Shown here piece by piece: positions 15,097 through 42,360 of a stretch of 64,000 bases of DNA (within the stretch, counting starts at the first letter, position 1; each line of letters starts with the position of its first letter). The stretch is taken from the NCBI GenBank assembly GCA_951406725.2, contig OX597819.1:1612001-1676000 (forward strand). The letters are read 5' to 3'. Under the pieces are notes generated by a model. It worked only from the letters and a program-made list of their open reading frames with translations. It was not told the DNA's origin and did no database searches. A program made the position numbers and the translations under genes. This stretch comes from Octopus vulgaris. Its lineage: Eukaryota.

Positions 15097-15308
15097 TGTC
15101 AGCCGCTTTCAATCATAACCTGCCTGTCTCTGAGGAGAAGCTCCTGGTGAAGCGCCTGCTAGATCGGTATGCCCGACTAGGAAAGATAGGCAGGCCCGTG
15201 CTCAACACATCGGAGACCGTCACCGTCAACTTTGACCTCAGCCTCATTCAGATTGTCGATGTAGATGAAAAAAATCAAGTACTAGTGACAAATATCTGGT
15301 ATAACTAT
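15097..15308 (+). CDS. Nicotinic acetylcholine receptor alpha subunit (Cys-loop ligand-gated ion channel), N-terminal extracellular exon
   Basis: Polypyrimidine tract plus tttcAG (15095-96) acceptor and GTacgt donor at 15309. The 212-nt exon reads (V)SAAFNHNLPVSEEKLLVKRLLDRYARLGKIGRPVLNTSETVTVNFDLSLIQIVDVDEKNQVLVTNIWYNY, with the nAChR RPV, QIxDVDEKNQ and loop D Trp motifs. Phase 1 in, phase 0 out. Confidence 0.96.
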
Positions 15309-16551: not shown

Positions 16552-16661
16552 GTTTGGACGGACCATCTTTTGAAATGGGATCCAGAAGAACATGGCAATA
16601 TTTCAAACATCCGCGTTCCATCTGACAGAATCTGGCTACCCGACATCTTATTATACAACTT
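16552..16661 (+). CDS. nAChR alpha subunit, 110-nt exon (loop A)
   Basis: ttggcAG acceptor (16550-51) and GTAAGT donor (16662). Reads [36 protein letters not shown](F), with the WxPD.LYN motif. In frame with both flanking exons; too short to appear in the ORF track. Confidence 0.96.
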
Positions 16662-19375: not shown

Positions 19376-19827
19376 TGCTGATACTCGTTTGAAAGAACAA
19401 CGGGAGGCTTTGGTCGTGGTTAACTATACTGGCGGTACTCTTTGGATGCCTCAAGCGATTCTTAAAAGCTCTTGTTTCTTCGACATCACCTTTTTTCCGT
19501 TTGACGACCAAGAGTGTAAGCTCAAATTTGGTTCGTGGACATATGACGGATTCAAGGTGGACGTGGTGTTTCGCTCTGCTCCGAAAATGGATTTAAACGA
19601 TTATATGTTAAGTAATGAGTGGGATATCATGGAAAATGTCGCGGTGAGGAATGTGCGAAAGTATGCGTGTTGCCCAGAGCCCTATCCCGATTTAACTTTT
19701 CGACTTCGACTACGAAGAAAAGTAGCTTTTTACAGTTTTATCCTCATCCTCCCCTGTGCTCTTTTATCTTTGTTAACGTTGGTTATCTTCTGGGTTCCAC
19801 CAGAATCTCCAGCTAAACTTCAGTTAG
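19376..19827 (+). CDS. nAChR alpha subunit exon: Cys-loop, loops B/C, M1 and start of M2 (predicted anion-selective, PAK filter)
   Basis: ttgcAG acceptor (19374-75) and G|GTAAGT donor (19828); 452 nt. Contains the Cys-loop CFFDITFFPFDDQEC (C-x13-C), loop B SWTYDG, loop C YACCPEPY (vicinal Cys = alpha subunit), M1 FYSFILILPCALLSLLTLVIFW, then VPPESPAKLQLG. Confidence 0.97.
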
Positions 19828-20339
19828 GTAAGTAGAATTTTATTATTACAATTTAAGTATTTTCAAGGTCTGCATATAAATAAATGTTATTGATACAAAT
19901 TTATTATAATAATGGGCGATGATAAATAAAATTTAAACGAATTTGAAGGAACATCTCGTGTAAAGAAGATATTTATACTCTTACAAAGATATCGATTGAC
20001 TAGTGCAAGTTAACTAGTCATATAAATGTTTTGGATCCCTATTGATTCTATTTCTCTTAGAGCATAGTCTTTATTTCCATTTGTTGCAAGCATACATACA
20101 TATTTACATATATTGTGTCGAAATCAATCGAGTCAGAATAGGAGACTATTCAATCTTTTGTGTAATGAGTACTTTCCCAAAAGTTTTGAACTTACAAACC
20201 TAGTAAAAGACAAGAAAAAGAAAGAAAAACCGCAACACTGGTAAATTACAAAAACAAACCAAAACAATACTAAAAATATTGGTTGGCTTCATTGGATAAA
20301 TGGGAAGAAGCGTTCGTTCGGCGAAGAAAATTGGAGTAA

Positions 20340-21270
20340 TCAGGCGGTAAATTTAAACTGGTGAATGACACATGAATTACTAATACCTACATTATGGTAA
20401 AGCAGGGAATAGTTCAACCATTGATCGTGCAAAACTATCAAGATAAATCTCAGAGGATTTTTTTAACTGAACCAAGAACTTCGCTTATCCTACAAAAATG
20501 TAAAGGATACTCGCTCAGTCAATGACTCGAAGATGATAAGTATTTACATTTCACTGCGAAGCAAATTTGCAGCGAGTTACGTTCTTTGAAAAGAACGATA
20601 GAGCTCTACTGAGCAGATCTGGTTATCAAAATATGCTCAACAGATAAGGCATCAACAGGCAAGTAGAATGTGCCCTAGAGAAAACTACTAAAAACATGGA
20701 CCACGGACAAAACAAAATCGATAACAATAACACAGCTATGAAATAGAATACCGCCGCTACAAAGTCATACGAAAAATAGAATGCATGCAAAATTCAAATT
20801 GCTCAGAACTTACAGCAAAATTTAATGAGAACTTCTAAATATAAGAACATACATCTTCAAGCTACTAAAAGAAAATGATTCGAACAGGAGTCAATAGAAA
20901 ACTCATTGACTTGATGTTATCTGTGGTCTATCAAGTTACTAAAGAACACCTAGCACAAAATGAAACCCCCAGAGTTTGGACATTGAATGTTTTGCTGTAT
21001 TGTGTTGCATAAATCATTCAAGTATTTGGAGATCTCTCTAAATGATAACACAACCGAAGTATGTGACCTATTTACTGAAAAACGGGACAAACTACGGAGA
21101 AACATTGTGCAACTGGTTGCTATGATTAGGTGCAAAGTGAATAATGCATTCACAAATCCCTAGTTACGAGTTTATGAAGGTTACCTGAAATGTACGTTAA
21201 GAGCCGACAAAAGACATTGAGCGTTAGAGAACTATTTGACCGAATCAACTATAAGCGTGTGATACGCTGG
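20340..21270 (+). mobile_element. Highly decayed Penelope-like (GIY-YIG) remnant
   Basis: Degenerate resemblance near 21050-21150 to the GIY-YIG CxxCG.xYxGET..L..R region; heavily mutated. Confidence 0.3.
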
Positions 21271-21429
21271 TACAGAAAAAAATTCATGTGAAGACAACGA
21301 AATCGTGCTTTCAACACGTGTACTATAGAGGCAAGCAGATCTTTTTTAGATCAATCTAAGCATATTCACACGTAAACCTACAAAAAGGCACACATTAATT
21401 AACTCAAGTATTCATAACAGTCCGTGAAT

Positions 21430-21701
21430 CTGTCTGTCTGTCTTTTTGTCTGCCTATCTATCAATCTATCTATCTACCTACCTACCTACCTACCTACCTA
21501 CCTACCTACCTACCTACCTACCTACCTACCTACCTACCTACCTACCTACCTACCTACCTACCTACCTACCTACCTACCTACCTACCTAATTACCTACCTA
21601 CCTACCTACCTACCTAATTACCTACCTACCTACCTACCTACCTACCTACCTACTTACCTACCTACCTACCTACCTACCTACCTACCTACCTACCTACCTA
21701 C

Positions 21702-21735
<34 letters not shown>

Positions 21736-21778
21736 GTATTCATACATTCATTCATATGTATGCGTATGTATATATATG

Positions 21779-21830
<52 letters not shown>
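21430..21830. repeat. (CCTA)n/(TCTA)n/(TA)n compound microsatellite
   Basis: Directly visible. Confidence 0.95.
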
Positions 21831-21835
<5 letters not shown>

Positions 21836-22496
21836 ACAAAAATAATCAGTTGAAATGAATATAGTCTATCCAAAATCAAAACTGAAGACATTATCCACAT
21901 TGTTGTAAAGCGAAGAAACAATGAAAAAGAATCCATGGCGACGATTGATTAACAGAATACTGATGCTGGCCTGCATCAGAGACGGCTCGATTGGTCTTTT
22001 GGCCTTACACTCAATTCCGACGACCGAATTTGCACGTCAGAAGCATGCATACATACATATATACATACATACATACATACATATATATTTATACATACAT
22101 AGGTGCAGACATACATATATGCTTGCATGCATACATGCATACATACATTCATGCATGCTTGTACTACAATCAGGTCGATATTAAGACGGATGTAATTATG
22201 TCTCTCTCTGAAAGCAACATACTGTGTTATGGTAAGGCTGAGCAACCAAATGTAGGCAAGGTTATATAGAAATATTACTAAATATCTAGAAAGTACATAT
22301 ACTGTGGCATTCAAATATTTATCGACAAATTAGACAAGCGACGCTACAGACAAATTGTTGCACAGGTACATTTATAGCATTGAATCTCTCTTACAAAAAG
22401 CTAACTGAAGATATGAATAACCTTCAATTTAATAGTGATAAAAATTTGTCTGAACATTATCCCATATATATATGCGCGTGTACATTCACGCACACG

Positions 22497-22539
<43 letters not shown>

Positions 22540-23369
22540 ACACACACACACACACATACACACACACACATACACACACATTGTCGACAATGTGCTTAAA
22601 AATATAACTTAATAATGAACGGACAAAATCACGTTGGCTAAAAGCTTCCTTTAAGCCATTCGTGACTGGAATCAAAGTATACACTAAAATCTGAAATATC
22701 AAACATCCTGGATTAACCAAACTAAACGTTTTATCAAATATAAACTGATGCATATGATTGAATGATCCGTTTGAACACAACTTTACTATCTTTTCGTAAA
22801 CAAATAGAGATACGTAAAAGAATAATAACTTTAATGCCAACAGGGATGTACATGCAGTAGCACGCCTGAACAGTCGTAGGCTAACTTATGCCTACTCAGC
22901 GACAATTCATCTGCATTTCAAAGCTTAGCTGAGAAATCAGAGGATACCGAAATGTGTTTAACACCCTGTAAGTTATTTGGGATCCTATTAGCATAGTGTT
23001 GAACGAAAAAATAAGAAGGATAAAAACAGCATATAATTTTGAACTTTTGAAAAACAGGCCAATCAAATCAATGGAAATCAATCAATCATTCATTCAATCA
23101 GTCAACCAATCAATATGTGTTTGTGTGTGTGTGTCCAGATATACTTGTCGGCCATCACATTGTTCATTCAACGGAAACAGCTGAGCTCCATCATTGAAAA
23201 TACAAACACCTTGAACCAGTGTAGGCCAGTCACATAAAAATATGTTTTCATACTTATGAAACGCAATACAGATGGTACATTCGCGAAACTTCAGGAACAT
23301 ACAAAACTGAAATTAGAAACCAAGTTTGTAGACAAAAGTTACTAAAATTACTAAGTGGAGTAGGTTTCC

Positions 23370-24780
23370 AAGAGGAAATATTTTAGGGTGACAGCTTATG
23401 CATAATATCTTTCATCCTGCCAGTGGACCCCTTGTCAGCCCCCTAAAGGAAAAGCAAAGTCTGGACGATAGGATCTTCACAAAGGAAGAACGTTTGTAGA
23501 CCAAACAAATATGGATATTAATAGCTTATCTATCTTCTCCATCTCCATTGAATGAATGTTACAGGTACCTCAGAATTGAGAAGAATATAGCGTATGTTGA
23601 TGGAGTGAGCGAAGCTAGAATGACAAACTAACGCTTTAGCAAACTTTGAATATTACAGAAGTCAGAGTTGTTCACATTCAATAAAAGCATATCCCACAAT
23701 ACTTTCAGTGTACTGGAGTTTATATCAACATACATAGAAACTTGAAGAAATACACAACTTGAATGCTAACAACTACCGGTAACTTCCACACCAACTGTCA
23801 GGATCTACATTAAAAGTGAAGATGGAGGAAGAGGCTAAATATGACCCCTGATGGTATTTGAGGGCCGCGACTATCATTTAGACAACGCCTGGTGAATAGT
23901 AGAGAGAGATTGTACTTAGCAACAAAAGTAATAAAATTCATGTGATTAGGCCAACATCACCTGCACAGGTACTCCGAGTGTACAACATTTCTATGTGAAC
24001 AAAAGGCAGCTGGACTGACATATTTAAACAAAAACTAGGCGGAGAAAGTTATGCATGGACACATATACCACAAGCTACAGAATACTAGCATTGATAGGAA
24101 TAGCAGCATCTCATGGACCTGTGATAGATACATCACAACTCATGGAAAAGCAACATCTTTGCAATCCAGGAACAGGTGACACCCACTAATGTTTTGACCA
24201 GAGAGAGAGAGAGAGAGAGAGAGGTAAAGATGCATCTAAATCTCCACTTTGTGACAGATCATGCCGATCGGGCCATACTACTTTTGATGATCTCATACCT
24301 TGCAGCAGCTTTCTAGTAGAGTCCGCAAGACGCTACCTATCTATGATATACAACATTATTACTAAAATTATCTACTGTGCTATCTTCCTATGATAATGAA
24401 AAGCACACAAAAACCAGAATGTATCCGCATTTTTAAAAATAGATATATTGCTAGAGGAACAGTCTGACAAAACACCAACCTAATGTAAACACAATAGTCC
24501 AAATATTGCTCTTTGGAATTGGAACTAAAAGTCAAGTATTATTGTAAGGCAAATGAGAACAATTGCAGAGAAAATAAAAAGAGGAATCTATAGTACTTAT
24601 AATCAAGTTATAAATGTTCATCTGTGCTTGTTACCATAGGCGCACTAAAGTATACAACCACATATTTGCATAAAAGCGTAGATATGTCGGTGTTCTCAAA
24701 AAAAAAAAAGAACAAAGCAAACTGATTTGCATTCTCCAAACGATTAGAGGTAACATTTTCAAAATATCCCATTGGTTCTC
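23370..24780 (+). mobile_element. Decayed R4/Dong-like LINE (RT to endonuclease)
   Basis: IF*GDSL (RT), YL.IEKNIAYV, KVMHGH, SWTCDRYITTH..IFAIQEQ; same family as the 17095 fragment. Confidence 0.7.
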
Positions 24781-26290
24781 CTTTTGAGGCTCCTAGGTTG
24801 AACACAAGAGCAATTCACTCGTACACATGGAATTCACACACTCAGTCACAAGTATACAGACGCATAAACAGCAATGAAGCAGACACTCCTGTGTATTAAA
24901 GGAGTACATTCACTACATTAGAGCAAGTTTATCTATACATAGAATGGTATATTTGCACACACCAACAAATTCAAATATCCAAATTTCCCCATGTGCTTTC
25001 TTGATTTAAACAAAAGCGCTGTTGTGTAAGCAGCTTGAAACCTAAGGAAAAATAATTGAAATAAATCCTAAAGAAATGTATACATACATAGATACATACA
25101 TTCATACATACACACACACATACATACACAAAAAGGGAACTAATATAATCTAATGACGAATCTACAGTTATTCCACTCGGAATGAAATTTAGGTTTATTC
25201 CTATAATTATTGGCAAACTTGGATACGTAACTTGCTGCCACAGTAGGAATCTCGAAAATCTGGACTTTACAGCAATGATCTATTAACGCTACTGTGAAAA
25301 TACGCAATTTAGTATTTAGTAAGTGCAAATGTACAAGCGTAGGCATGCAAACATTAGTACACGTACACATACAAAGAATACTTAATACTCCACACATACA
25401 ATAACAACAAATCTTGCACACGTATATATGCTTATAAGTTGATACATATCCATTCATTCACTCTGAAGGAATCACTAGAACTAAATATGCGGTTTGCTCT
25501 TTATTTCATATCGTTATGCATACAGTTCTGCATCACAGGATGTTAATACTGAATTGCAAAGATGAGTAGAAATTTCCGTACTACTTAGTTTCATACTAAT
25601 CGTACAGGCTTTATTAATATAACATTTGCTTATTTTTCTGAAGTTAGTCTGAGCTTTGATGATCGCGCGTTTTCAATAATTATATCTCGAAGTTAGTGAG
25701 ATCCAAATCATTATAACACATTACAACTGACTAAACTAAAAAATGTCATAAATGTAGTCGAAACATGAGGTTTGCCATAAACTTTTTAAGATATATTACT
25801 GGGCTTCTTTCTGTTTGTATGTAACCATTATGGCGCGTATGGGTAGTTTTTTTTGTGTGTATACATACATTTACACACACATATATATATATATATATAT
25901 GTACTTACATATGTATATATACATATATACACATACATACGTATATATGTATGCATATATATATAGACACAAACATACACATGCATACATACATACATAC
26001 ATACATACATACAAACATACATACATACATACATACAAACATACATACATACAAACATACAAACATACATATATACATACATACAAACATACATACATAC
26101 ATACATACAAACATACATACATACAAACATACATACATACATACATACATACATACATAATACATACGCACATATGTGTGTGTGTGTGGGGGGGCTAACT
26201 TTAAACAATAATATATTTAGATTTTGTACTATTGTTTGATATTAAGATAGCGAAAAATACTATTTTGACAAGTGTATCATCATCGTTACT

Positions 26291-26322
26291 ATTTTCTTGT
26301 ATTTTTCTCTTTGTAGGTAAGT
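26291..26322 (+). other. Candidate recursive splice site (zero-length exon, AG|GTAAGT)
   Basis: attttcttgtatttttctctttgtAG is followed directly by a perfect GTAAGT donor, on the sense strand, about 6.5 kb into the long intron after the M1 exon. Confidence 0.55.
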
Positions 26323-26699
26323 GTCATTGGGTTTTCTTGACGATTTTTCTAGATGTCACGTCTTCTGCATCGGTTAAGTGTCAGGTTGGTGTGCATATAT
26401 CTTTATATACTATTTTGTGTATTAGATTCAAAATTTCAATGAAAAATATTAATCTTTTTCAATTTTGCCTTTGCAGGTTACTTTTTTAGATATAAGCTTT
26501 TCTTATTTAACCATATTTTATATTTATATCTACAGACAACGTTTAAATTTTAAACCGTAAGGTATTGTTTTAGCTCAAAATTAGTTTAGTAAATCAGTTT
26601 ATAGAAATTAGTTTAAAATTACATTTTCTAAGCAGTGTATGGCTCATAAAGCCGATATGAAATCCAGCCTACGTCTCCTTCGTCGACGCTGCACTGTAA

Positions 26700-28163
26700 T
26701 TATTGCTATACTATACCCCCTTCACACCGGTTTCACTTACGCATCAATTTGTTTGTTTCCATACTCATGTATCTTTTCTCATGCCTTTCTGTTTTGAGTC
26801 TTTCTTCCGAATTTTGTTATGGGGAGATTAAGCTTTATTCTCAAAATCGTCTCTCTGTATTCTATAGATTGAAATTCACGCTTTTCGACTAATTTGTGCT
26901 GGTAATTTTTAAGTAATCCAAATCTACCCTTTTCTACGATCATCTTTTTAACAACAGAAGTTTCAGTTCAAATTTCTTCCTGATAATTAGTAAATAAGGG
27001 TCGGCTTTCTTCTTGAGATTCTTTACAGTTATTTCACAGAATTAGGCAAAGAACGCTGCTCTGATTTGTGCGAAAAATAGGTTACGCTCCAACAACTTTT
27101 TCTTTTGATAGCTGAGTGTAGAAGAACCTCTAGGTTTTGCAAGCTTTCTAGATCATTAATCTCTTGAAACTTTTCAAATCAATAGTTGAATAAAGACATG
27201 AGAAGTTCGGAGGACTAAACTTCTGTGAAAGGAGTGTTGAGCGTAGTGATTAGTGCGGAGTCTGAGAGTTTGGACAAAGGGAAGCGGAGAGATGAGTGGG
27301 AAGGAAAATGCATGAGTAGAAATAGCCTCAGCTCAGCCAACGCCAAGGAGCAGAGACCATCATAGTTGGGAGTAAGAAAATAGAAAAAGGAGACATCGCG
27401 TTTGTGGGCTAGAGGCTGGATTATATTTTCTGGATGACTTTATACCAATAAGGAGAGTGGAATACTCCATTAATAGTTCCGCCAGAGATTCGTTGGGTGC
27501 CAATAACTGTAGGGAACTGCATTGCTTTCTGGTCTTAATTAGCAGAGCCAGTCGTGATGCAGTACTAGATATGTTTAGGATATACTTTCGCGAGGAAAGA
27601 TCCCCGGAGATCATCAAATCCAACATTTGGAGTGATTAAGAGAACTTTAGCTGCGTGCTGCTCATCGTTAAGGCTTAAGTCATGTTATGATGCTTTATTC
27701 TTATGTGAATAACTTGTGTGTGTTCTTGCTGCTGAAAGAGACAATATTTTCATGTAGGTGGATACATTCGGATCTATGTTAATGAAGCCAGTGTGTGTTT
27801 GATGTGTGGTGTGAAGCTGCGAGTGGTTGATGCATGGTTGTAGAAGGTGTGCAGTAGTGAGCATTGTTCTATATCATGTGCATAAGAGTGAGTGTTTGTG
27901 GAGGTGACAGTAAGTACATCATTGATGTAAAGAAGGAAGAAAGTGAGGAACACTGAAATTGATAGGAAGGGAACACACGCATTCGAAAGTTTTGTTGAGG
28001 CCGAGGGCGACAACGATGCTTTCACCAAGTTTCTTCGAAACATGTGTCCACTGTTAGGTGACATTGTGGATCTAGCTCTAAGGAAACCGTACTAGTTATC
28101 AGCAGGCGGACAGAGAGACGGGAGGGAGGAAGAGAGAGATATATATAGAGAGTTAGAGAGAGC

Positions 28164-28206
<43 letters not shown>

Positions 28207-28330
28207 TGAAAGACATCGATGACAATGGCTATCTCCATTATCTTAGTCATATTGGAATTAAGAGCGATAAAGAAATAGTTGTGAGGATCAGAGCATGGAA
28301 CATAATAGCGTTGTTGCAAGTATTAGGTGA
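26700..28330 (-). mobile_element. Decayed Penelope-like retroelement RT region
   Basis: Minus-strand fragments such as DLMISGDLSS and TTLNTPF resemble PLE RT; interrupted by (GA)n at about 28165-28203. Confidence 0.4.
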
Positions 28331-29095
28331 AATTGAACAACATCAAAAAGACAAAACAAAGCAAAAATAAAACTTAATGAAAATACTTATTGGTATTACT
28401 TTGACTGAATAAGTAAAAACAATTCTATAAGTGGACATTGCGAATATTAACGAGCTTATGTTATTATAGTAATTATACGGAATCAATCAACAAAAGTGAC
28501 TCAAACTATCATTTATATACTACATTCATTATTTTCCCACTGCCACCATTGAACTGAATGAATATGGCTACCATGCTTTGATAAGGTCATGAAAATTTGC
28601 CAGTTTGCTAATCCGAAATATTAATATTGATATTGGAACGCTGTAGAATTGTTGCTTTTAACGTTTGTGGTTTTTTTATAAAAAAAATAAACTAATCTAG
28701 AATGAGAATTAAAATACCAACGACACGAAACTATATCATTCTTTAACCAATTGTTAGTTTTACTCGAACGATTTTAAATACGCATTCAATTTAACTATTT
28801 TCTTGAAATATCAAAATATTTTTGATGAGATTTCAATGATTGACGTGCAGCTTATAAAGAACACAAGGAATATTGATAAATTTAAAATGGGTTGGTGGAT
28901 GGGTGTGACGGTGGCTCAGGACACTAGGATAATTACAGCTTAAAGGAATCAGAAATTCTTTAGCTGATTTCAGAGAATATACTTTCCCAAATATGAGTTT
29001 AATTTTGCCATACAAAATATAGGATATATAACTGCATAGATAGTAACTTCTTTCGAGCCTGGAGGGCTGCGAGGCTAAAAGACAAAGTGAAGCGA

Positions 29096-29154
<59 letters not shown>

Positions 29155-29515
29155 TGTTTGTATATGTATATGTATGGATATGTATGTGTGCACACACATT
29201 TATATACATACAGTATTACTTTCATGGCTTTTCATAAATTACCACTTTCCGCCGGGTAATAAGTATGGTAATATATTAAAAACGACCTGCGTTAAGGTCA
29301 GTTGTTCAGCTGGCAAGAATTTCGATTGTTGTATCAGAAGTTGTAATGATGCAAGACTGACAGGAAATATATAGGCAAACAGCTGGCTAATGCTAAACAT
29401 ACAGCTTCAGAATTTGTGAGAATTGTTCTGTAGACAATTCTCACAAAGTTGATATACAGTGCTAAAGTAAAAGCAAACAACAGAGACGAACCTAATGTGT
29501 GTGTGTATGTGTGTT

Positions 29516-29595
<80 letters not shown>

Positions 29596-30615
29596 TGTGT
29601 ATATGTATATACATATATAAATATACATACACACACACGTACGCACACACGCAGACACACACACGCATACAATAGGGCAACTGAATTGACATCCGAAGAC
29701 GGACTTTAATAACCACAAACATTCCTTTGAAAAATACACCATACCTTTGTCGAAATTTGTATGGTTCTTATGAGAGGCAAGTTCACACAAATTCAAAATT
29801 AGCTGGCCGAGTGTAGATAAGGCACAGTCATACATGAATTCTGAATAAAAATGTGGTTTGTTACCTGTATTTGGGTTAAAAATTAAGAAGTAGTTTCAAG
29901 AGAGTAAGATTTTGTAGAAAATAATTGAATGTGCAAAGCTAAGTATCTTTTGTGTAAGTACAAGACTCCTCGAAAATTTGATTTCGTCTGGAAAGTTCCA
30001 TTCGAGATATTTGAAAAAAAAAAAAAGAAATTGCTTTTAAAACTACTTAAAAGAACTGTCATTTCATACGGGTATGAAATCCCTAATAATAAAGTTTAAG
30101 ACGTTTGAAGTATTCCCATGAGAAAGAGAAATGAAATGAAAAGCGCGATCCCGAAACAGCCGTTTTGACACGTATCGCTCGACCAAGTTGTTTGAAGAAA
30201 TTTTATGAAAAGAGTTTTCTTGATAAGTTTCGTATAACATTTCAAGATATATTCAAACAATAGACGATTCTCGAGAAAACAGGCTTTGTTTAGCAGATGA
30301 GAGAGTAGTAACATGAAACTTAGATATGTTTAGGGTGCGCTTTCGCTGAAGGTTATGGGTCTTTCAGTAATAATTTATAAAATAATACTTTACTTCTACG
30401 TATTGAGTTCTGCAATTTCTGACCTCGTGGTGAATGTATGTATGTATGTATGTATGTATGTATGTATGTATGTATGTATGTATGTATGTATGTATGTATG
30501 TATGTATGTATGTATGTGTGAGTGTGTGTGTGTATGTATGTATGTATGTATGTATGTATGTATGTATGTATGTATGTATGTATGTATGTATGTATGTATG
30601 TATGTATGTATGTAT

Positions 30616-30686
<71 letters not shown>

Positions 30687-32559
30687 CATACATACATGTG
30701 CCGGCATTCTGAACAGTTTCAGTCTATCAAATTCCCTCACAATGAATAAACCTAGTGGGAGGCTTTAGTAGTAATTATATTCTTAAGGTGTCTTATAATT
30801 ATGAAACTGAACCCATGGTTGTGCAGTAAAAAGTAAAATTTTCAACAACTATTCAGCAACAGCCATGGGTAATATATTTCATTGTGCATATGTAAGTAAC
30901 AGATTATTATCTCAGTTGACTGTGCATATTCATAGACTTGGCACTATCTAATACACATATACATGAACAAAACATCTTTTTTTTTAGTATCATTAGACGT
31001 TTGTGTGTTTTATAATTCCATGTTTGTGGATATACCATATTTACATTCTTTACTTTGACCAGAACAAAACTAAACATAAAATTTGTAATTGCCACCGCAC
31101 CTTTTGCATTTATGTACCTCACTGTTAGCTTTGTTTCCAACTGACATACTCAAAATCATGTGTAGTATTACTACCACTCGGACAAATGTATTTTCACCTG
31201 AACTTTTTGTATAATAGCTACAACGTTGTGCAAATCAAGATTATCAGTTCTTTGAGTTTGCCTGTTATTGTTGTGTCGCGTAGACGAACGTTCAATGTAT
31301 GCAAAAACAAATTGCCATTCAAACCATTAAAGTTACATTCACGTAACATTTCTCTCAAATACTCATAAATTCTGCCGTTTTCTTCGTAATGAGAAATCTG
31401 TCTTTATTAATTCTAAATGCGCAGAAATTGTTGAAATGTTCTATGACAACCACATACATCTTTTTACCATGGACTTGTTCATGAGTGAAATTAATGTAAA
31501 TTAATTTACCTCATTCAAAAATGGTACGTAGTCGTTTGCAGATTTGACTTTTTCAGCTGACTCATCCATTTTGCAATTTTTGTCTCTCAATAAATTACAG
31601 CAATTAAAGTCCGAAGCAACTTTTCAATCAACCAATTTACTAGCAAACAAATCAAGAGCAGCGAACACTACCATTTCATGTTATACAGGTCGATAACGTC
31701 AATAATCCGATTCAGCCGGTACATCTGACACCATATCATGTCAGTGTATCACTAGCTTGTTCTAAAGATGGAAGCGGAATGCATAAGTATATATCAGATA
31801 ACATATGTGAAGCAAGAAAACTCTCGTTGCAACTGAGTTGTGCTTCGTAATGCAGTTAATTAAACGGGATTATATGGAAATGATGATGATATTAATAATA
31901 AAACATAAGTCCATGCATTAGTTAGGGAATTTGAGGTGTGTTGTACACGTCTGTAGTTGTATGACAAGCACCAAAGGGATTACAACAAAATGGTTATTTT
32001 TGAAATCTCCAACGTAGGATAAGTCCTATATTATAGATTATCAATATCACCTACACAATGTACTCCCTGAAATGACATTATGTGGGTCTCTCTCTTTCTC
32101 TCTCTCTCACACACACATACTCACACACACTCACACACACACACACACAAATACGCTCACACGCACATATATTACATAGCATTATGCTATAAGTAACTTC
32201 TTAAATCTCTTAAAGATAAGATTCTTTTATTTTCGTACTGTCTCCCAGTAATCTTCGCAAATGCTATTTGCGCTATTGTAATATCAGCTAACAAACAATC
32301 TTTCGCCAAACTACTTTAGAAATGACGACAAATATTTTAATAATTGACATCAGAATAGTGATTTATTATAATGGCGTTCAGAAAAGAGTTGAGAAGGAAT
32401 TACTTAGAATAAAGTATTATCACAGTATGCAGAAAACGCTTCTGGTTTCATTCGAGATTTGTAGGCTCTCTCGAAATGATCAGTGCTCAGTCGCCCAGAC
32501 TTCGATGTTGGTTAGATTATTGCTATTAATGTTAATCTTAAACAACTAAATTTCGGTGA

Positions 32560-33190
32560 TGGAAGAAGCTCATGGACAAGGAGAAAGAGTTTAACTGAGT
32601 CAGTGATTAATGAGGAAGACACAGGTATGATTAATCTGGAAGACATATGTATGAGAAGAGAATCAAGTGTGTTGAGTAGGTTTGAAGGCTGTGTTGTACA
32701 ATAAGATAGCGTAGAAAAGGCATCGTGAGTAGACATCACGTCTGTGGAATGAAGGTTGAAGTATATCGGTTGGGGGCCTGTGTCGACTAATTGAGACACT
32801 TTTGTTAGAGATAGTTTTATTCTATTTGCTGCAGTAGTAGGTTAAGATTTAGAAGCTGGTTTGTAGAGAATTAAAAACACCTAGGAGAATTGTTAATCAA
32901 TAGAATGCAGGTTTTCTTGTAAACGCAGATTGCCAGAAGAGACCATCAGTAAGTGTAACGCTTGGTGCTTGTAGGAACTTTACTGGTTTTAGCAGTGCGA
33001 TGTATATCACTTGAATAAAATATCTCGTTGATATGTTTTAGCGATTTTGTCTGTTTGCTTTTGAAAGATAAAATACTGATATGCTCTTATTGGAAAATGG
33101 TTAAAGAACTTTAACGTGAGGTATTCAGGCTGCATGGGAATGATGTAAGTGTACAGAAGATTAGGAAAGAATGAATAGTGGAGTCAGCTA
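32560..33190 (-). mobile_element. Decayed Penelope-like RT fragment
   Basis: ORF 32512-32799(-) LHSTDVMSTHDAFSTLSY..QPS..NTLDSL resembles the PLE RT segment DVxSLYT.IPH.DGL.AL...QPS..TL. Confidence 0.4.
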
Positions 33191-33518
33191 CACGGAAGTG
33201 GATGCTGTTACAGGCACTTCAATTTGACAAGGATGAAAAATATCAAAGGAAATGCTTTGGAACTAGTATCTCCATAACTATTTAGACCCTCCTATCAAGA
33301 AGCATTTAACTAGTCTGAAAGTGATGCTTGCTAGCACAAGCTATAACGAATAACATCGATAGACATTCCCGTAGTTCAATAGAATTATATCTTTCTATCG
33401 CGAAGAATTAACATATATCTGTATTCAGATTGACGCCTCTGAGAACGTTTCTGAATTTGACGACTGTCTTCTTATATACTGTAGCATTAACCTATGGGCA
33501 GTTGTGTGTTGTACTAAC

Positions 33519-33711
33519 ACTGCCTTTTCTGTTCTAGATTTAAGGGATGAGGAATTATGTACATTGTTTACATTATTTACATTTGACAGATATTTGTCCT
33601 CATCTTGTTTGTTGTTAACACAATGTTTTGGCTGATATACCCACCAACCTTCATCAGGTGTCTTGGGGAAATTTCGAACCTGGGTTCTCATTCCTAAGGT
33701 ATTTTTCGATG

Positions 33712-33780
<69 letters not shown>

Positions 33781-33845
33781 TCACTGCCTGGAATCTTGGG
33801 GTTAGTAGCTCGCGCACTTAACCACTACGCCATATGGGTGCGGGC

Positions 33846-33906
<61 letters not shown>

Positions 33907-33929
33907 TAATAATAATAATAATAATAATG

Positions 33930-33987
<58 letters not shown>

Positions 33988-34173
33988 TAATAATATCAAC
34001 ATCGAAAAAGACCTTAAGAATGAGAATCCAGGTTCGAAATTTCCCCAAGACACCTGACGAAGGCTGTAGGGGGGGGGGGTATATCAGCCGAAACGTTGTG
34101 TTAACAACAAACAAGATGAGGACAAATATCCGTCAAATGTAAATAATGTAAATAATGTACTGCCTTCTCTGTT
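33519..34173. mobile_element. Non-autonomous Penelope-like fold-back element (tRNA-like head + (AAT)n + hammerhead tail, with an inverted truncated copy), 15-bp TSD
   Basis: Arms 33559-33714 and 33997-34160 are reverse complements. The direct repeat actgcctt(t/c)tctgtt lies at 33519-33533 and 34159-34173. A tRNA-like TGGCGTAGTGGTTAAG segment lies on the minus strand at about 33777-33836. Confidence 0.75.
34049..34102 (+). ncRNA. Minimal type I hammerhead ribozyme (Penelope-type)
   Basis: Stem I GACAC/GUGUU; core CUGACGA plus one extra A; stem II GGCUG/CAGCC; GAAA; palindromic ACGU stem III; UH triplet GUU. Confidence 0.7.
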
Positions 34174-34904
34174 GCCTCTTTCCTGGTCATAAAGATCGAG
34201 CCATATATTTATGTATTTATTGACCGGTCGGTGGGGCACACATCGTGTGACAAATGATTTTCTTTATCTGCTTCTTCAGAGATCTTTGCATGTACCTGTG
34301 TTTCTCGAGTAACAGGGGGTCAGAGGTAGGTAGTTTCCTCCTTTCTATATCCTCGGTAAATTTGTCGGGCAAGATGGTACAATCTTTTGTGGCCTAGCCC
34401 TCCCACTTTCTTGCCAGCTGTTTCATTTAGGCTTGCGACTTTGGGAAAATAGGTGTGACTGTTGCTGTTGACTCAAGGTTATAATTTGTGGTCTTGTCGT
34501 TTTTTTCATTTGGTTTTGTCAAATATCTGTGTTTACACCTGTGTCTGCATGTTCAGTATTATCTACTTCCTCGATTTTTCAAGCTAAAGTTTGAGTGTAA
34601 GAGCGTATACCTTAATGGCTAATACCTCTTGTAACGCTCCCAGAGCTGGCTATTTTGCATCGCTATTAGGCATTGGTGCAGAAGCAAGAAAATATTTTTA
34701 AAATTACGTAAGAACCTTCTTCACCCCAGGGAAAGAAAGTAGAGGCATAAATGTCCGAAATTTCTGCGTTGGTGAAAAAGCTTCCTTTTCATTTCCGAAG
34801 CTCTGTTGTTTCTAGACGTCAGCTCGTGACAAACATTAATAACAACAATGACAGCAACAACAGTAATTATAATAATAATTTCCTAAATTAATAATTGTTT
34901 CTAA

Positions 34905-35090
34905 TATAGGAATAAAACCAGAAATTTTTGGAGAGGCGTTAGTCAATTATATCGGTTTCAGTAATTGACTGGTACTTAACTTCCATCGATCTCTAAAAGA
35001 TGAAAATCGAAGTTAACCTCATTGCGATTTGAACCGGGAGCATAAAGGTCAGAATACAATGCATTTTGTCAGCCGTCTACAACGCAAGGT
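34905..35090 (-). mobile_element. Old OR-like SINE copy
   Basis: gactggtacttaacttccatcgatctctaaaagatgaaaatcgaagttaacctc..atttgaac is a diverged form of the core. Confidence 0.65.
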
Positions 35091-35099
35091 CATCATTCG

Positions 35100-36330
35100 C
35101 AATTTTCAGTACTGAGAATTTCACATTGTTCCAGCGGGAGAGGAGTTTCTCATAATGTGTGTTGTTTGTCTTTGCTCAGGGTTTGCTTTTATGATCTAAG
35201 TTTTTTTCTCTTTCCTGCAGATTGTCATTTCTTTCCTGCAACCATCTCCACCCACAGCATATTATGAGATTGTACTGCTGGAAAGGGGAGGCTTAGTTCT
35301 CGCTTGTCTAGTTCTTGTACTGAATACTAAGTAATGTTTCAGACTACTCTAAGTCTTCGGCTAGTAGTGTCTTGCATACAGCTGCTATTGCTGTTTCTAT
35401 CCCTCCTGTTATTTGCCGGCACGCATATCCTCTGCTTTTTCAGCACCTTTGAGCAGAAAGCCTTGATGTAGCTTTTACTCCCATTCATATAACATTTTGT
35501 CTTCCTGTACCAGCAATGAATTTCTTTACTTACTGCACCACCAATGGGGTACATATCCAGAATATCTTTTATAGTATTTTAACGCCTGTTTATCTATATA
35601 GATCCTATCCGACTATTTATTGTTTTGTGTTATCTCTGCGACCACAATCTATACATACTGCTCTGTAAATGCGACAACGAGTCAAGGATTAACGACATTA
35701 ATACTTGTGTTTCATCTCCCCCATAAATCTGTACACATACAGTTCATAGACCTCTACTAGGAAGTCTCCAAACAATTCCGGCATATGGAGATAGATCTTG
35801 TAGAACATATCCTTCTTCCCGGGTGATTTCCCACCCCCACCGAGCAGTCAGCTATTCCTTCACGTATTTCATCCACTCTTATCGGCTTTCGTAGAACTCC
35901 GCATCTCCAATCGGGAGTCGCAGTAGACCATCGCCGTAGAGAGTAAAATCTACTTTCGTTTTCGACGACGCAGCATCCGTCCCGAACTGTCCAGCAAAGT
36001 GCTACTTTACAGCTGTACATATCTACTTGAGATGAACTGGCGGGAACCTGTTTCCAAAGCGAATTAAGGGCATCTTAGATAAATGGAGAGAAGCACCACT
36101 TACAATATATACTTCTTCCATCCCTCCAGCTATTTGGATGAATTTCCACGAATAAGCTTTTTTGTAGTATTTCGTTAATATTCCAGTAGAAATCTATACC
36201 GTCTGCATATTCGATTTGTTTTAAAGATTGTGTGTTCTATTTCCTGTTGATTACTGTTATGCGTGCTGATATAGTATTTGCTACTAAGATGCAGATATCA
36301 TGTGTGGTGTTTGTATGTTGATGCATGTAA
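35100..36330 (-). mobile_element. Decayed RLE-type LINE (RT region)
   Basis: Minus-strand KKLISWK...G.DG-like and RT-like fragments with many stops. Confidence 0.45.
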
Positions 36331-37849
36331 TTCATTGATGTTCTTTGGCTTGTGTAATTAATGACTTTTTTTGTTTGTGTTTGAGATGGAGTTCTGGTTG
36401 TTGATTGCGTGATCTAGTTTGTGCTTGTGTTTGTAACATTGTTAGTGTCGGTGGTGGTGGTCGTGGTTGTAACAATGACGATGATGTTGACAGCAATGGG
36501 GTTACTGCTTTGGAAGTGTTGGTGCATCATCTACCCAATCCGTTCGAATCACCCGGGGTCTTTTGTTGGCATGATGTTGTTTTCTTTTTTCTTTCTATTC
36601 GTCACTTTAGCTGTTTGGAGTATCCACCACCACCACCACCACCACCACCTCCCACACATCACATGTCTGAGTAGTCTGAAGTGAGGAGAGTCACGTGTTT
36701 GACGGAAGATTATGGAGTTGTTCCTTTGCTGTCCTTTTTGTTGATATTTTTGCTCTTCCTGTTGCTGTTGTCTGCGATATTGTCGCGCTTAGAGACGGTG
36801 CTTCCTATTTGGTTTTTGCTTCTTCCAATGTTGACGCTGTTGTTGTTATGGTTGTCGATGTTGCTTATATTCTTGAATCTGGCGCTGTAACGACTGTTGT
36901 TGTGGCTGCTCACTGTCATCGATGCTGCATTTGGTGTTGCGCTACTGCCGTTGTTGTAGTTGTTGTTGTGATGTGGATGTGATGTGGAGAGTAGTCGAGG
37001 CCTTCTTGGAGCTGTTACTTTCTACTGTTTTACAGGTAGAAGACATTGACCTGATCGATGTTTCCATAATTGTGCTATCGAAGCCCTCCATTACCCTCCA
37101 TTACTGCCTGCTCTTCACATCGCTAGTCGTTAAGGTTCCAGTTAAACGTCTTAACTTGCAACTAATCCGGTACTATACAACCGTATTTACAGGCACAGGT
37201 GACAAAGCTTACATTTCTTCAAGTGTCTTTCAAGCTGAGTACAGTTTGCTTGGGGGGGGGGACTCGCTCCAGTCTGTGTATTTTCAATTATATGTATCCG
37301 TATACCACTGATGTTTTTTCTAACCACTTTTGAATGTCACGTGGGGCCGTGGATGCTACTTGTCTTCCGAAGACCCTTGATATGTTGTTCTGCATCTTCT
37401 ATGTACTTGTACTTTTCCAGTGGGACTGAAATCAAAAGCTTTTGCAGCACCAGCAAATACTGTGCTTCCACTACCGATGCTATTGTTCCTTTTGTTGCTG
37501 TTGCTACTGATGTTGTTGCTGCTGTTGTTCGTCATTATTACTGTTGTGGTGTTCTGTTGGAAGGTATTGTTTGTGAACGACAGTTTCACTTTCAAAATTG
37601 CCCCTTAGCGTCCCCTGTTGCTGACCGGCCGGTAATGAAGGTCACTTTGAAAACTCTATTTTGATGTGAAAAAAATAAACTTTCACTTGGAATTTTCAAT
37701 TCATTATGTAAAGAGCCAGAGCAAATATCGCAAGGCAGTTTCCCCGATGCTCCGGCGATTTTGCTAATTAACAACAACACCAATAATTAAACGCCAGTGT
37801 TTCTTTGAAGAAAGCAAACAGCTCGACTCCACCTCAAAACGATTCTATC

Positions 37850-40040
37850 AAGAACTTGGTAAAAAAATAAAACAGAAGACAATGCAGCGCCAACAGTAAG
37901 AAAAGTAAAAAAAAAAAAAAATACCGGACAGTTTTGGCTGTGAAAGAATCACTGAGAAAAAGACTCATCAAATAATGAACATAACTTTGGAATGAATGTG
38001 GGCGTACTTATAAACAAAACAAGTGGCCCAGATGCATAAAAAGATAAAAGAAGTGGAAAGTATCCGGGCATGACATGACACCCAAAATTTCGCTAAAATA
38101 TTTAGAATGAGGTGTTAGCGGAGAAATTTAATGAGATGCCGACAAAACTAGTGACAACATCTGACTGATTCACTGAAGGAAAAAACAATCTTCTCGACTC
38201 TACAGAAAGCACAAATGTCTTTCTTTAACCTATAAAACTGTAACTTGGATAATATCGTATAAATCGAACAAAATCTAGAAGGAAACAGTAAAGCGATAAT
38301 CGAAGTCTGCTGCAGGAAATAGAATGACCTGAGAATAGCATGTATTGACTACAGGACGATTTTCGAAAGTATTCTCCGCAAATAGATCCTTGAAACAATA
38401 ATGATAGGTAACATAACAGAACAATAACAAGAAATACACTAAACTTTTCATTAGCAAATGGCAAACAGTTTTGCTGTTACAGATAAAAAAGAGAATTGTA
38501 AAAAGTAAACCCATTCTCATTAAAAGAAAATTATTCAAAGGAACTTTCTCTTTTGCTACCTTTCTTACGGGCGTCGACGCCTTTGACGAGCATGCTAAAC
38601 AGAACTGGACGTGAATACTAATGATATGGTAAGACAATTGGCCATGTCTTGTATATGAATATCGGCAAACTGTGTATTGCAAATACTGAAAGACTAAAAG
38701 TATTTCTGTATGTAATGCACGGATTTACCAAAGAAATAAATAAGAGATTCGGTTTAGAAAAAAAGCGCTAAATCGACCTTGAAGAGAGGAAAATTAATTA
38801 AGAATATTAATATCATACTAGATAAAGAAACTGAGATATGAGAATTGGACCAATCACAGACAGGAAAAAATCAATGGAACAGACTGCACAACACACTCAA
38901 ATGAAAGAAAAGATTAAGTGGGAAAATTATAGACGCCTCTGATTATTAATAAAAACAGCTAAATGTAAAATATAAGGAAATAAGCATGAATACTGTAGCT
39001 GCTCTGACAATAAGTTACAATTTTAATATCTGGATTATATGCTAACTAAAACAAGATAATGACTTCAGACTACATTTAGAATAATCTCCAACCACAAAAT
39101 TCTGACTTTGGAAGACTATATTTATCAGAACTACAAGACGTTGAGGGCTTTATACAGTTAGAAAATAATTACAAAATATCCACTGTATGACGACAAAAAT
39201 ATTATTACAAACAGTTATTAAACATGAATAAAACTAAAAAATATTTTTGCTTTTTGTGTATTCAAGGAATCGGAGAAGCACAAAGCAGAGGCTGCAATTA
39301 CAGATAGCTATAGGGAAAGAACAAAAAACCGTGAAACAGTTAAGGTCCAAGCCAAATATTGCACTACAGAATACCATGAAAATGAACGGGAAGGAAAACT
39401 TCTACTGGAAAAGACAACTCAGTGGAAATTGACAAAATATTCAAACACATATTGAAAAGAGTAGAATCCGTATTAGAGAGTAGGGTATATATTCAAGCAG
39501 AATACTGTAACTTCAGAATATATAAAGACGGGAAGAAACAATTGAGGACATTGTCTCTGGATGCAGATACTTAGCCAAGAAAGAATACATCCAAACACAT
39601 GACGGAGTTGCTGCTTACAAACACTGGGATTTATTCTACCACCATGAAATACTCATAGGAATGAGTTGGCATAAGCATACACCAAGGAAGTTTCTGAGAG
39701 GGGCAGAACAACCATACACTGGGATATGTCAGTATCAAGGAAAACCAACTAGATATTGTTGTCATGGACCTCGAAGAAAAGAAATACCTGAATATATCAG
39801 TCCCGATAGTTGATAATGTATCTCTAAAAGAGATTAACTAATTATTTAAGTATAACGATTCGGATAAATAGACAGCTCGAATGAAAACGGAAGTAATTCA
39901 TATAATGATATATGCTTTGGGAAAGATCAAAATATATGTAAATATACAACAAAAGCCTAGGGTTTACAAATATGCATTAAGTACAGAAAATAGCACTATC
40001 AGCCACTGCGATAATATTACGTGAAGCACTTTCAATACAG
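37850..40040 (+). mobile_element. Decayed R4/Dong-like LINE, RT through C-terminal endonuclease
   Basis: HVLYM (degenerate YMDD), HGFTKEINKRFGLEK, EETIEDIVSGCRYLAKKEYIQTHDGVAAYKHW, DIVV, ISVP.VDNVSLKE, QKIALSATAIILREAL. Confidence 0.85.
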
Positions 40041-40149
40041 TAGAAATAACAAATCCGAAACACTGCATATATCAAAGGCACACATAAATGCGAAAGTACA
40101 AGATAAAAAAATAAGAGGAACAACAACTACAACGACAACAATAGTAATA

Positions 40150-40341
40150 ATGGTTTCAATTTTGGCACAAGGCCAGCGATTTTGGAGGAGGGGTAAGTCG
40201 AGAGAATAAGTACCAGTGCTCACGAACGGATGAAAAGCAAACTCGACCTCAGCAGAATTCAGAACTCAGAACGTAAAGACGGACAAACTACCGCTAAGCA
40301 TCTTGTCCGACGTTCTAATGATTCTGCCAGTTCGTCACCCC
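40150..40341 (-). mobile_element. OR-like SINE copy
   Basis: Minus strand ggggtgacgaactggcagaatcattagaacgtcggac head plus core; next to (AAT)n. Confidence 0.75.
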
Positions 40342-40397
<56 letters not shown>

Positions 40398-40447
40398 CAA
40401 CAGTAATAATAATTCCTTAATTGGGGACAAGTATCGGAAAAGAACAC

Positions 40448-40777
40448 TTAGACTAATACATTGATTCCTAAGTGTTTGTATACCTGAGTTTGGTCTAATT
40501 CTCTTATTTCAGTTTCTTTATCAAATATGATATTGTTATTCTTAATTAGTTTTCTTCTCAGGGTTGATTTGGCACATTTTTCTAAGCTGAATCTCATATT
40601 GATTTCTTTGGTAAATCCGTGAACCGTCTGTAGTAATGTTTCCAGTTGTTTATCATTTGCAGCATACAACTAGAGATCATCTATATAAAGAGATGGTTGA
40701 TTGGTTTACCATAGCAATTGTATCCAAATACAGTACGGTTAGCATGTCAATCAAAGAAGTCGATGCCAGACACAAAA

Positions 40778-40841
<64 letters not shown>

Positions 40842-42274
40842 TATTTCTTTTGGAATACTCTTCAAATGGTGAAAGGTTTAGTTTTTATAATTCCCTCTTT
40901 TGTCTGCAGAACTGTTTGCTATTGACTCATGGCATGTTTTATGTATTATTTTATTGCTGGTGCTATCTTACTGAAGACCAGTATCTGTTTCTAGGATCCA
41001 CGGAATGGCAAATACTGTCAAAACCCATCTATTAGTTAATCCATGCCATGCTTAGATCATTCATTTTCCTTCGCTAGTCTTTTCCCCATTTGATCTTGTT
41101 GATCAGAAACTGGTTTTTACAAATATGACACTCAGCAGCATCCCTTCAGCTTTTTTTTTTTCTGGAAACACGTTTTTACTTCCAGAAGCTTGCTTATTCC
41201 CTGCAATATTATTTCTACTATTTCACTTCAGGTTGTGTAACTTGTAGGGAGACATGTGGGCCTCTAGGTTTGTGGGTTCAATGTTTACCTGGATTTGGGG
41301 ATTAAGACGGTTTTCTTTTCTGTGAGTACTCACGTGTTTCCGTTAGTTCCATCAGCATCACATTAAACTTGTTTGATATTTGCAGTACTTGGGTTTACTC
41401 TCTCTTTGGTTATGAGCATTCTGAGTTGTTCAAGTGCTGGGTTTGTTGTTTTATCCAGTCCTTTCCTGGTGCTTCCTTTCCTGGTGCTTCCTTTCCTGGT
41501 GCTTCCTTTCCAAAATTCTGTTTCTTTTGCTGTTCGTGTTACATTGACTTCTATTATACTTTTACCAACGTATTGGTAGATTCATTCCATTGTACGCTTT
41601 ATTCAAAAAATCTTTGGCGCTTTACACGCCGACAGGTTCTTTGTGATTTAGCGAGGATCTCCTGTTTTAGGTTTTCTTTTATTTCAGGTATAACTTATTT
41701 GTTGTTTTACATTTCTTTAGCATTTTTCTTTCTTTCCTCTTGTTTCGTAGTTTTGTTTTCTTACCGATATCACTGAGGATTGACAGATTTTTTCTCTTTT
41801 CTCTATCTTTTTCTGAATATCTGTTTCCTATGATATTTTCTTGGGTTTTGGTATCCTATTTATGTGGGTTTCATGGAGTACTAACTTTACTTTATGATTA
41901 ATAATGCTTCTGCATGTGTCATTGTATTTTACTTGTTAATGTTGATGTTTGAATTTGCTGCAATTAAGTCTGTGATAGGCAAATCTGTGTTTTTTTTATT
42001 GTCCTTGTTATCTTATTTTTTCGGGTTTTGAGGTGGAGTGCATTCAGTGGTCCACAAGACGATCTTATTGATTTCAATTCTTGATTTAGACTATATTGAC
42101 CATGATTTCCACGTTCAAAATTTATCTTTAGATCTACTTGATATTCCCTTTTATTTACAGTATTGTTTGCACGGTTCTGATTTAGTATTTTTAGGCCATT
42201 ATTGTTCAGTCCTAGAATTTGAGATTGCCGGGTTTCGTTATTTATTTCGTTTGTGATGCATGTGTCAACCATAT

Positions 42275-42275: not shown

Positions 42276-42277
<2 letters not shown>

Positions 42278-42360
<83 letters not shown>

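What the first reader, a model, noticed from the sequence alone, without database searches (positions are those of the whole stretch)
19791..19827. Acetylcholine receptor with an anion-channel selectivity filter (PAK instead of GEK)
Seen: the M1-M2 linker reads WVPPESPAKLQLG, with Pro -2' (19809-11), Ala -1' and Lys 0', and no -1' Glu. Loops A (YN), B (W), C (YxCCxxxY) and D (W) are all intact. Established: cation-selective nAChRs have GEK, GlyR/GABA-A/GluCl have PAR, and anion-selective nAChR subunits are described in the snail Lymnaea. Inference: this is an inhibitory, possibly homomeric, ACh-gated chloride channel of a cephalopod, which automatic annotation would probably label alpha-7/9/10-like. 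The Gln at pore position 2' is also atypical.
Basis: partly seen in the sequence, partly recalled or inferred. Interest (0 to 1): 0.7.

Follow-up and report, generated by a model that had tools for sequence, protein, structure and literature searches.

The report
Octopus chloride-type acetylcholine receptor subunit
This octopus gene encodes a subunit of an already described family of acetylcholine receptors that pass chloride and so inhibit neurons; it is likely the family member that gave no current when tested alone, and it carries two swappable pore exons and a likely stepping-stone splice site in a giant intron.

Summary
The PAK linker is real, and spliced RNA contigs from 4 of 4 runs carry it unchanged. 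It is not new. PAK defines the lophotrochozoan AChRB clade (Lymnaea B/F/I/K, schistosome SmACC). Courtney et al. (bioRxiv 2025.04.02.646353) list three octopus members and showed AChRB1 to be an ACh-gated chloride channel.

This gene groups with Lymnaea F/I, not with B/AChRB1. By accession arithmetic it is probably AChRB3. AChRB2 and AChRB3 both gave no homomeric current, so 'possibly homomeric' is doubtful. Gln2' is the commonest residue in the clade (82 of 134), not atypical.

Two features outside the finding were not found in print. (1) M2 is encoded 125 kb downstream by two tandem exons only 40 nt apart; RNA contigs show each spliced alone, and they differ at pore position 13' and in the M2-M3 loop. 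(2) One RNA contig joins the PAK exon to a fused AG|GTAAGT site at 26316/26317, the signature of a recursive-splicing intermediate.

Verdict: known kind of receptor, likely an anion-channel subunit that needs a partner or a particular isoform. Modest interest, mostly from the splicing.

The parts
15097..15308 (+). Coding exon: N-terminal part of the extracellular domain, with loop D Trp (15297-99)
   Evidence: AG/GT boundaries; 100% to Octopus RefSeq proteins
16552..16661 (+). Coding exon ending in loop A (Tyr-Asn, 16654-59)
   Evidence: its 3' end is the loose end joined to 19376 in 4 of 4 runs
19376..19827 (+). Coding exon: Cys loop (Cys 19473, 19515), loop B Trp (19536), loop C (19662-19685), M1, M1-M2 linker and first M2 residues
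19809..19817 (+). Pro-Ala-Lys selectivity motif (-2', -1', 0'); aligns without a gap to Gly-Glu-Lys of alpha4
   Evidence: sequence; alignment; unchanged in RNA contigs
19828..64000 (+). First 44 kb of the 124.7-kb intron (donor GTAAGT at 19828). It runs beyond the window to the tandem M2 exons A (G000:C6:1756500-1756586) and B (1756627-1756710), followed by the M3 exon (1790608-1790726) and the last coding exon (1794339-1794800)
26290..26322 (+). Likely recursive splice site: pyrimidine tract + TAG|GTAAGT, junction at 26316|26317; a possible cryptic donor 68 nt further on
   Evidence: contig of run X11 joins the 19376-19827 exon to this site; best-scoring of 327 AGGT sites in the intron; donor at +68

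Best explanation
The window holds three exons of an intact, spliced Octopus gene for an alpha-type nicotinic receptor subunit of the PAK-bearing AChRB clade (Lymnaea F/I branch), which likely contributes to an inhibitory acetylcholine-gated chloride channel, probably together with another AChRB subunit rather than alone. Acetylcholine would bind the intact aromatic box (loops A, B, C on one face, D on the other) and open the pore. Loss of the -1' Glu ring, with Pro at -2' and Lys at 0', would favour Cl- over Na+/K+, as measured for the paralogue AChRB1, which has the same PPESPAK linker and whose M2 (0'-20') differs from the exon A form only at 1'. The cell picks one of two M2 exons, changing residue 13' and the M2-M3 loop, which is predicted to tune gating or assembly rather than charge selectivity, since PAK lies in the shared upstream exon. 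The 125-kb intron before them is likely removed in at least two steps through a ratchet site at 26316/26317.
For: Shown: PAK and binding loops in sequence; spliced contigs with 0 other letters in 4 of 4 runs; 131 of 134 scorable relatives have PAK; a 51-row clade at SH-aLRT 96 apart from GEK outgroups, the gene inside a 22-row F/I branch at 99, and a 10-row F/I branch at 100 in a second tree without long-branch rows; O. bimaculoides AChRB1 reversal potential shifts with Cl-, not Na+; Pro-Ala replacing Glu is described as the anion determinant of Lymnaea and schistosome channels. For needing a partner: AChRB2 and AChRB3 gave no homomeric current, and a list of subunits known to form working channels names only Lymnaea A and B. 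Splicing.
Against: No current has been recorded from this subunit, so its selectivity is by homology. The heteromer is my inference; the preprint does not contain the word 'heteromer' and I saw no co-expression data. The failed expression could be technical: the four O. sinensis RefSeq models seen (P0123, P0127, P0129, P0130) start inside a downstream exon and lack the signal peptide found 131 kb upstream, and one O. vulgaris model lacks loops B-C and M1 (P0157). Identity as AChRB3 rests on accession arithmetic. Classical alpha7 charge reversal also needed Thr13' (recalled); here 13' is Val or Leu (Val in AChRB1). Trees are quick searches with SH-aLRT only; the one-clade test did not finish. 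The ratchet junction was seen in 1 of 4 runs, in contigs only.
Confidence: 0.7

Rival explanations
1. It is a homomeric ACh-gated chloride channel; the published failure came from a wrong clone (no signal peptide, one M2 isoform, or M2-skipped form) or a missing chaperone.
For: All alpha-type loops and loop D Trp are intact. Public models of this gene are often faulty: no signal peptide in four O. sinensis models, M2-skipped isoforms (P0125, P0127), internal deletion in P0157. O. vulgaris AChRB1 itself expressed less robustly than the O. bimaculoides gene.
Against: No homomeric current for AChRB2 or AChRB3 in a screen of 17 ligands at 1 mM. It lies in the F/I branch, and only A and B are listed as working Lymnaea subunits. 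The clone sequence was not visible to me (bioRxiv supplements closed).
Confidence: 0.2
2. The junction at 26316/26317 is an alternative last exon that makes a truncated protein (ligand-binding domain, M1 and a short tail), acting as a decoy or dominant-negative subunit; or it is a reverse-transcription artefact.
For: The contig has high depth (62 against 77 for the exon). The joined frame stays open for 56 codons after the Gly. The exon end and the site share 9 letters (TAGGTAAGT), enough for template switching.
Against: Absent from contigs of 3 of 4 runs. The same run holds unspliced intron behind exon B, so it contains nascent RNA. The site regenerates a perfect donor and ranks first of 327 AGGT sites. 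The contig length would place its end in a GA repeat near 28190.
Confidence: 0.2
3. The subunit co-assembles with cationic GEK subunits, or is recoded by A-to-I editing (Lys0', Gln2'), so native channels are not chloride-selective.
For: Octopus has many GEK subunits (7 of 10 other loci fetched gave a GEK linker). Cephalopods recode neural mRNAs heavily (recalled).
Against: No other letter in any contig over the exon or the M2 exons, though contigs drop rare variants. PAK is kept in 131 of 134 scorable relatives.
Confidence: 0.07

Closest known systems
Octopus AChRB1/AChRB2/AChRB3 (Courtney et al., bioRxiv 10.1101/2025.04.02.646353; abstract, sections 8 and 19 and passages read)
   Same: Same family, same PAK motif; three PAK genes found in this genome match the number named. 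This gene is AChRB2 or AChRB3, likely AChRB3.
   Different: Not AChRB1, the member shown to be a homomeric chloride channel (49% identity; separate branch). The main text has no hit for 'splic' or 'heteromer'.
Lymnaea LnAChR B, F, I, K (van Nierop et al. 2005; paper not held; known from citing passages and recall)
   Same: PPESPAK linker, intact alpha loops; identity 60% to F, 54% to I, 49% to B, 41% to K.
   Different: One octopus gene faces three gastropod genes (F, I and an unnamed one) in the same branch.
Schistosoma SmACC-1/-2 (PMC4055736; passages read)
   Same: nAChR-derived subunits with Pro-Ala in place of Glu; flatworm relatives fall in the same clade (SmACCs themselves were not in my tree).
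   Different: Different branch; trematode relatives are much longer proteins.
Insect nAChR alpha6 duplicated exon 8a/8b/8c (PMC1919356; passages read; that exon 8 encodes M2 is recalled)
   Same: Tandem duplicated, alternatively used exons in a nicotinic subunit.
   Different: Cationic alpha7-like lineage; here two exons 40 nt apart in an anion-type subunit, so likely convergent.
Drosophila recursive splice (ratchet) sites (PMC6110457; abstract and introduction read)
   Same: Juxtaposed AG/GT inside a very long intron, and an RNA junction from the upstream exon to the internal site.
   Different: Mollusc; site lies 6.5 kb into a 124.7-kb intron rather than near the midpoint; no sawtooth or lariat data.

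Membership tests
Alpha-type nAChR subunit (Cys-loop) | Cys loop, vicinal cysteines in loop C, aromatic box, four TM helices | tested here: met
   all coding exons located in G000
AChRB / anion-type nAChR clade | Pro-Ala-Lys at -2'/-1'/0' in place of Gly-Glu-Lys | tested here: met
AChRB / anion-type nAChR clade | Groups with Lymnaea B/F/I/K apart from GEK subunits and chemotactile-like receptors | tested here: met
   SH-aLRT 96; one probable chemotactile-type row, L040, outside, labelled by me from recall; 100; quick trees
AChRB / anion-type nAChR clade | ACh-gated current reversing with chloride | not testable with these tools
   Shown for AChRB1 only; no homomeric current for AChRB2/3
AChRB1 (Lymnaea B orthologue) | Is the gene LOC106879694 / XM_052969792.1 and groups with Lymnaea B | tested here: not met
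   XM_052969792 corresponds, by the recalled RefSeq offset of about 144,040, to XP_052825752, which lies in the cluster of the C1 paralogue; that paralogue groups with Lymnaea B (96-97), the window gene with F/I
AChRB3 (LOC115212977) | Gene id maps to XP_029637701 / XP_036360176-8 | tested here: inconclusive
   Only by order: XP_029637701 is 1465 before XP_029639166 and LOC115212977 is 1224 before LOC115214201. No direct mapping found.
Mutually exclusive tandem exons | Two homologous exons with full splice sites, each spliced to the same neighbours, never together | tested here: met
   40-nt spacer; A in 4 of 4 runs, B in 1 of 4; no contig with both. Contigs cannot prove absence.
Recursive splice site | Strong 3' site fused to a 5' consensus inside a long intron | tested here: met
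   2 strong sites on the sense strand, 0 on antisense, in 349 kb; mean 0.2 in 30 Markov resamples (1 of 30 reached 2)
Recursive splice site | RNA junction from upstream exon to the site | tested here: met
   one contig in run X11, 1 of 4 runs; 9-nt microhomology caveat
Recursive splice site | Second step from the regenerated donor (lariat, sawtooth read density) | not testable with these tools
   only contigs, no raw reads, were offered for this stretch

The most novel reading that the evidence does not exclude
The silent octopus AChRB paralogue is a modulatory subunit of inhibitory acetylcholine receptors whose pore helix is switched between two sterically exclusive exons, and whose 125-kb pre-M2 intron is removed by recursive splicing, giving RNA-level evidence for ratchet splicing in a mollusc and a possible link between the ratchet step and pore-exon choice.
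Probability: 0.4. Interest if true: 0.6.

Novelty: already known. Interest (0 to 1): 0.33.

Why it matters
The anion-filter observation repeats published work. What is useful: (1) it pins the locus to a member that failed in oocytes and shows concrete reasons to retest it (signal-peptide exon missing from public models, two M2 isoforms, possible partner). The preprint notes cholinergic inhibition in the optic-lobe medulla that AChRB1 expression does not explain, and this gene is a candidate. (2) Alternative pore segments also appear in the Aplysia gene of the same branch, so M2 switching may recur in molluscan inhibitory receptors. (3) The junction at 26316/26317 is a direct, testable lead for recursive splicing in cephalopods, for which my searches found no paper.

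Tried and rejected
Searched the window for M2-M4 exons by motif and by tblastn: none; they lie 125-163 kb downstream. RNA editing of the linker: no other letters in contigs; contigs drop rare variants, so this is weak. No run was on record as RNA ('no RNA holder listed'); RNA status is inferred from spliced joins. De Bruijn chimera as cause of the ratchet junction: rejected because only 9 letters are shared, far below the 31-letter word; template switching is not excluded. Duplicated M2 exons or strong ratchet sites in the two paralogues: none seen in 60 kb around AChRB1 and 30 kb of the third gene. Mapping LOC ids to proteins through papers or supplements: nothing; one supplement was unreadable and bioRxiv supplements are closed, and those may hold the clone sequence and expression of AChRB3. 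Van Nierop 2005 was not held. PDB search found no solved structure named as an anion-type nAChR among the 60 of 94 hits shown. Careful trees and the one-clade test did not finish. No structure or complex prediction was run: Cys-loop subunits would pass by likeness to solved pentamers. Literature searches without result: 'recursive splicing'+'octopus' (0 papers), 4-of-6 terms with mollusc/cephalopod (8 papers, none containing 'recursive splicing'), mutually exclusive+exon+nAChR+TM2+mollusc (0 papers). Earlier notes of the scan near this place or on this receptor: none.

Full report
Observation. 19791-19827 reads WVPPESPAKLQL plus the first base of a Gly codon, then a GTAAGT donor. Pro, Ala and Lys at 19809-19817 align without a gap to Gly-Glu-Lys of alpha4, so this is a substitution, not an insertion. 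The window holds three coding exons: 15097-15308, 16552-16661 and 19376-19827. Binding loops A, B, C and D are intact. Contigs from 4 of 4 laid runs cover the exon exactly, are joined to the neighbouring exons and show no other letter. The runs are not on record as RNA, but the spliced joins show that they are transcripts.

The whole gene. The exon is 100% identical in protein to Octopus records, so the animal is an Octopus. In G000 contig C6 the gene spans about 350 kb: signal-peptide exon at 1445083, optional small exons at 1576014 and 1595693, the three window exons, M2 exons at 1756500 and 1756627, M3 exon at 1790608 and last exon at 1794339. The internal exons have AG/GT boundaries and the last ends in a stop.

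Family. Of 154 cluster representatives from two homology searches, 134 could be scored at the linker: 131 PAK, 2 AAK, 1 GEK; the other 20 were GEK outgroups, partial or odd models. Position 2' is Gln in 82 of the 134, so Gln2' is the norm of this clade. A 63-row tree puts 51 rows together (SH-aLRT 96), apart from GEK subunits; the window gene sits in a 22-row branch (99) with Lymnaea F and I; one paralogue goes with Lymnaea B (97) and another with K (100). A 27-row tree without the long-branch rows gives the same three groups. Both are quick trees without bootstrap. Three PAK genes were found in G000 (C6, C1:63.4 Mb, C1:177.4 Mb); I did not read the linker of every match.

What is published. 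Courtney et al. (bioRxiv 10.1101/2025.04.02.646353; abstract, sections 8 and 19, passages) describe this PAK family as AChRB. AChRB1 is gated by ACh (EC50 1.9 uM) and its reversal potential follows chloride. AChRB2 (LOC115229990) and AChRB3 (LOC115212977) gave no homomeric current. Their O. bimaculoides AChRB1 clone is XM_052969792.1. With the RefSeq XM-to-XP offset of about 144,040 (recalled), that is XP_052825752.1, a member of the C1 paralogue's cluster; the window gene's orthologues are XP_052824820-22. The tree agrees: that paralogue is the Lymnaea B orthologue. So the window gene is AChRB2 or AChRB3; accession order favours AChRB3 (about 85%, inference). The Pro-Ala rule and the Lymnaea and schistosome precedents are stated in PMC4055736 (passages). 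PMC11601209 lists only Lymnaea A and B among subunits known to form working channels (passage). PMC13174522, PMC6896357 and bioRxiv 2025.06.15.659772 (passages) showed nothing specific to this gene.

Mechanism. Shown: intact binding site, PAK, membership of the clade, expression. Established: replacing the -1' Glu with Pro-Ala makes Cys-loop pores anion-selective. Inferred: this subunit contributes to a chloride channel (about 0.85), and does so with a partner rather than alone (somewhat more likely than not). The alternative is a technical failure: the four O. sinensis models seen lack the signal peptide, two public isoforms skip M2, and one O. vulgaris model lacks loops B-C and M1. I could not see which sequence was cloned.

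Two pore exons. Exon A (87 nt) and exon B (84 nt) are separated by a 40-nt spacer, which is likely too short to be spliced out (inference from general splicing knowledge). They share their first 26 nt and differ at 13' (Val or Leu), at 22' and in the M2-M3 loop, which is one residue shorter in B. Runs X4, X8 and X13 show exon A between the PAK exon and the M3 exon; X11 shows both A and B, each joined to M3; no contig holds both. RefSeq has both isoforms in O. sinensis and O. bimaculoides, and four unnamed proteins of one cluster, whose representative is 95% identical to this one, use B. The Aplysia gene of the F branch also has two M2 versions and a skip form as RefSeq isoforms (P0037, P0202, P0203); I did not see its DNA. 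The two octopus paralogues showed one M2 exon each in the stretches fetched. Duplicated alternative exons are known in insect alpha6 (PMC1919356, passages). One search for a molluscan report found none.

Internal splice site. In run X11 a 1906-nt contig (depth 62) runs through the exon end and continues with letters found once in the 264 kb examined, at window 26323, directly behind a pyrimidine tract and TAG|GTAAGT. Only 30 of its loose letters were shown; if the rest follows the intron, it ends near 28190 in a GA repeat. The site ranks first of 327 AGGT sites in the intron by my simple score. Over 349 kb of the gene there are 2 strong fused sites on the sense strand (this one and C6:1565788/9), 0 on the antisense strand, against a mean of 0.2 in 30 resamples, one of which reached 2. 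A possible cryptic donor lies 68 nt on. X11 also holds unspliced intron behind exon B, so it includes nascent RNA, and the three other runs lack the junction. This fits the definition in PMC6110457 (introduction): fused AG/GT in a very long intron with a junction from the upstream exon. It rests on one contig; an alternative last exon and template switching at 9 shared letters remain open. I put recursive splicing at about 0.65. Searches found no paper on recursive splicing in octopus.

Verdict. The finding as written is correct in observation and already known in kind. The gene has probably been tested and was silent alone. The splicing features are the part worth following.

Noticed in passing
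window 26290-26322 (G000:C6:1638290-1638322): Fused acceptor/donor site with an RNA contig joining the upstream exon to it; likely recursive splice site.
   Followed up: partly
G000:C6:1565765-1565797 (L017): Second strong pyrimidine tract + TAG|GTAAGT site on the sense strand, in the 131-kb intron after the signal-peptide exon; no RNA test.
   Followed up: partly
L009:500-710: Tandem M2 exons 40 nt apart, identical over their first 26 nt, including third codon positions; recent duplication, conversion or a shared splicing signal.
   Followed up: partly
G000:C6:1576014-1576118 and 1595693-1595707: Optional 105-nt acidic exon and 15-nt micro-exon (adds a Cys) between signal peptide and mature N-terminus; public isoforms use them in several combinations.
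   Followed up: partly
Aplysia proteins P0037, P0202, P0203: Two alternative M2 segments and a skip form in the F-branch gene; genomic layout not seen.
   Followed up: no
G000:C1:177352500-177353000 (L027): The third PAK paralogue (Lymnaea K branch) has a very long Gly/His-rich M3-M4 loop (P0066).
   Followed up: no
proteins P0157/P0194: Public O. vulgaris models of this gene jump from the Cys loop to ESPAK, losing loops B-C and M1, and have an odd N-terminus; likely gene-prediction errors.
   Followed up: partly
window 17060-17800 and 39526-39810: Broken reading frames resembling the end of a non-LTR retroelement reverse transcriptase / zinc-finger region inside introns (my recall from the translations; not tested).
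   Followed up: no
G000:C15:56.9-57.43 Mb: Cluster of about 20 apparently single-exon nAChR-like matches at 22-32% identity, probably the chemotactile-receptor-type expansion (recalled).
   Followed up: no
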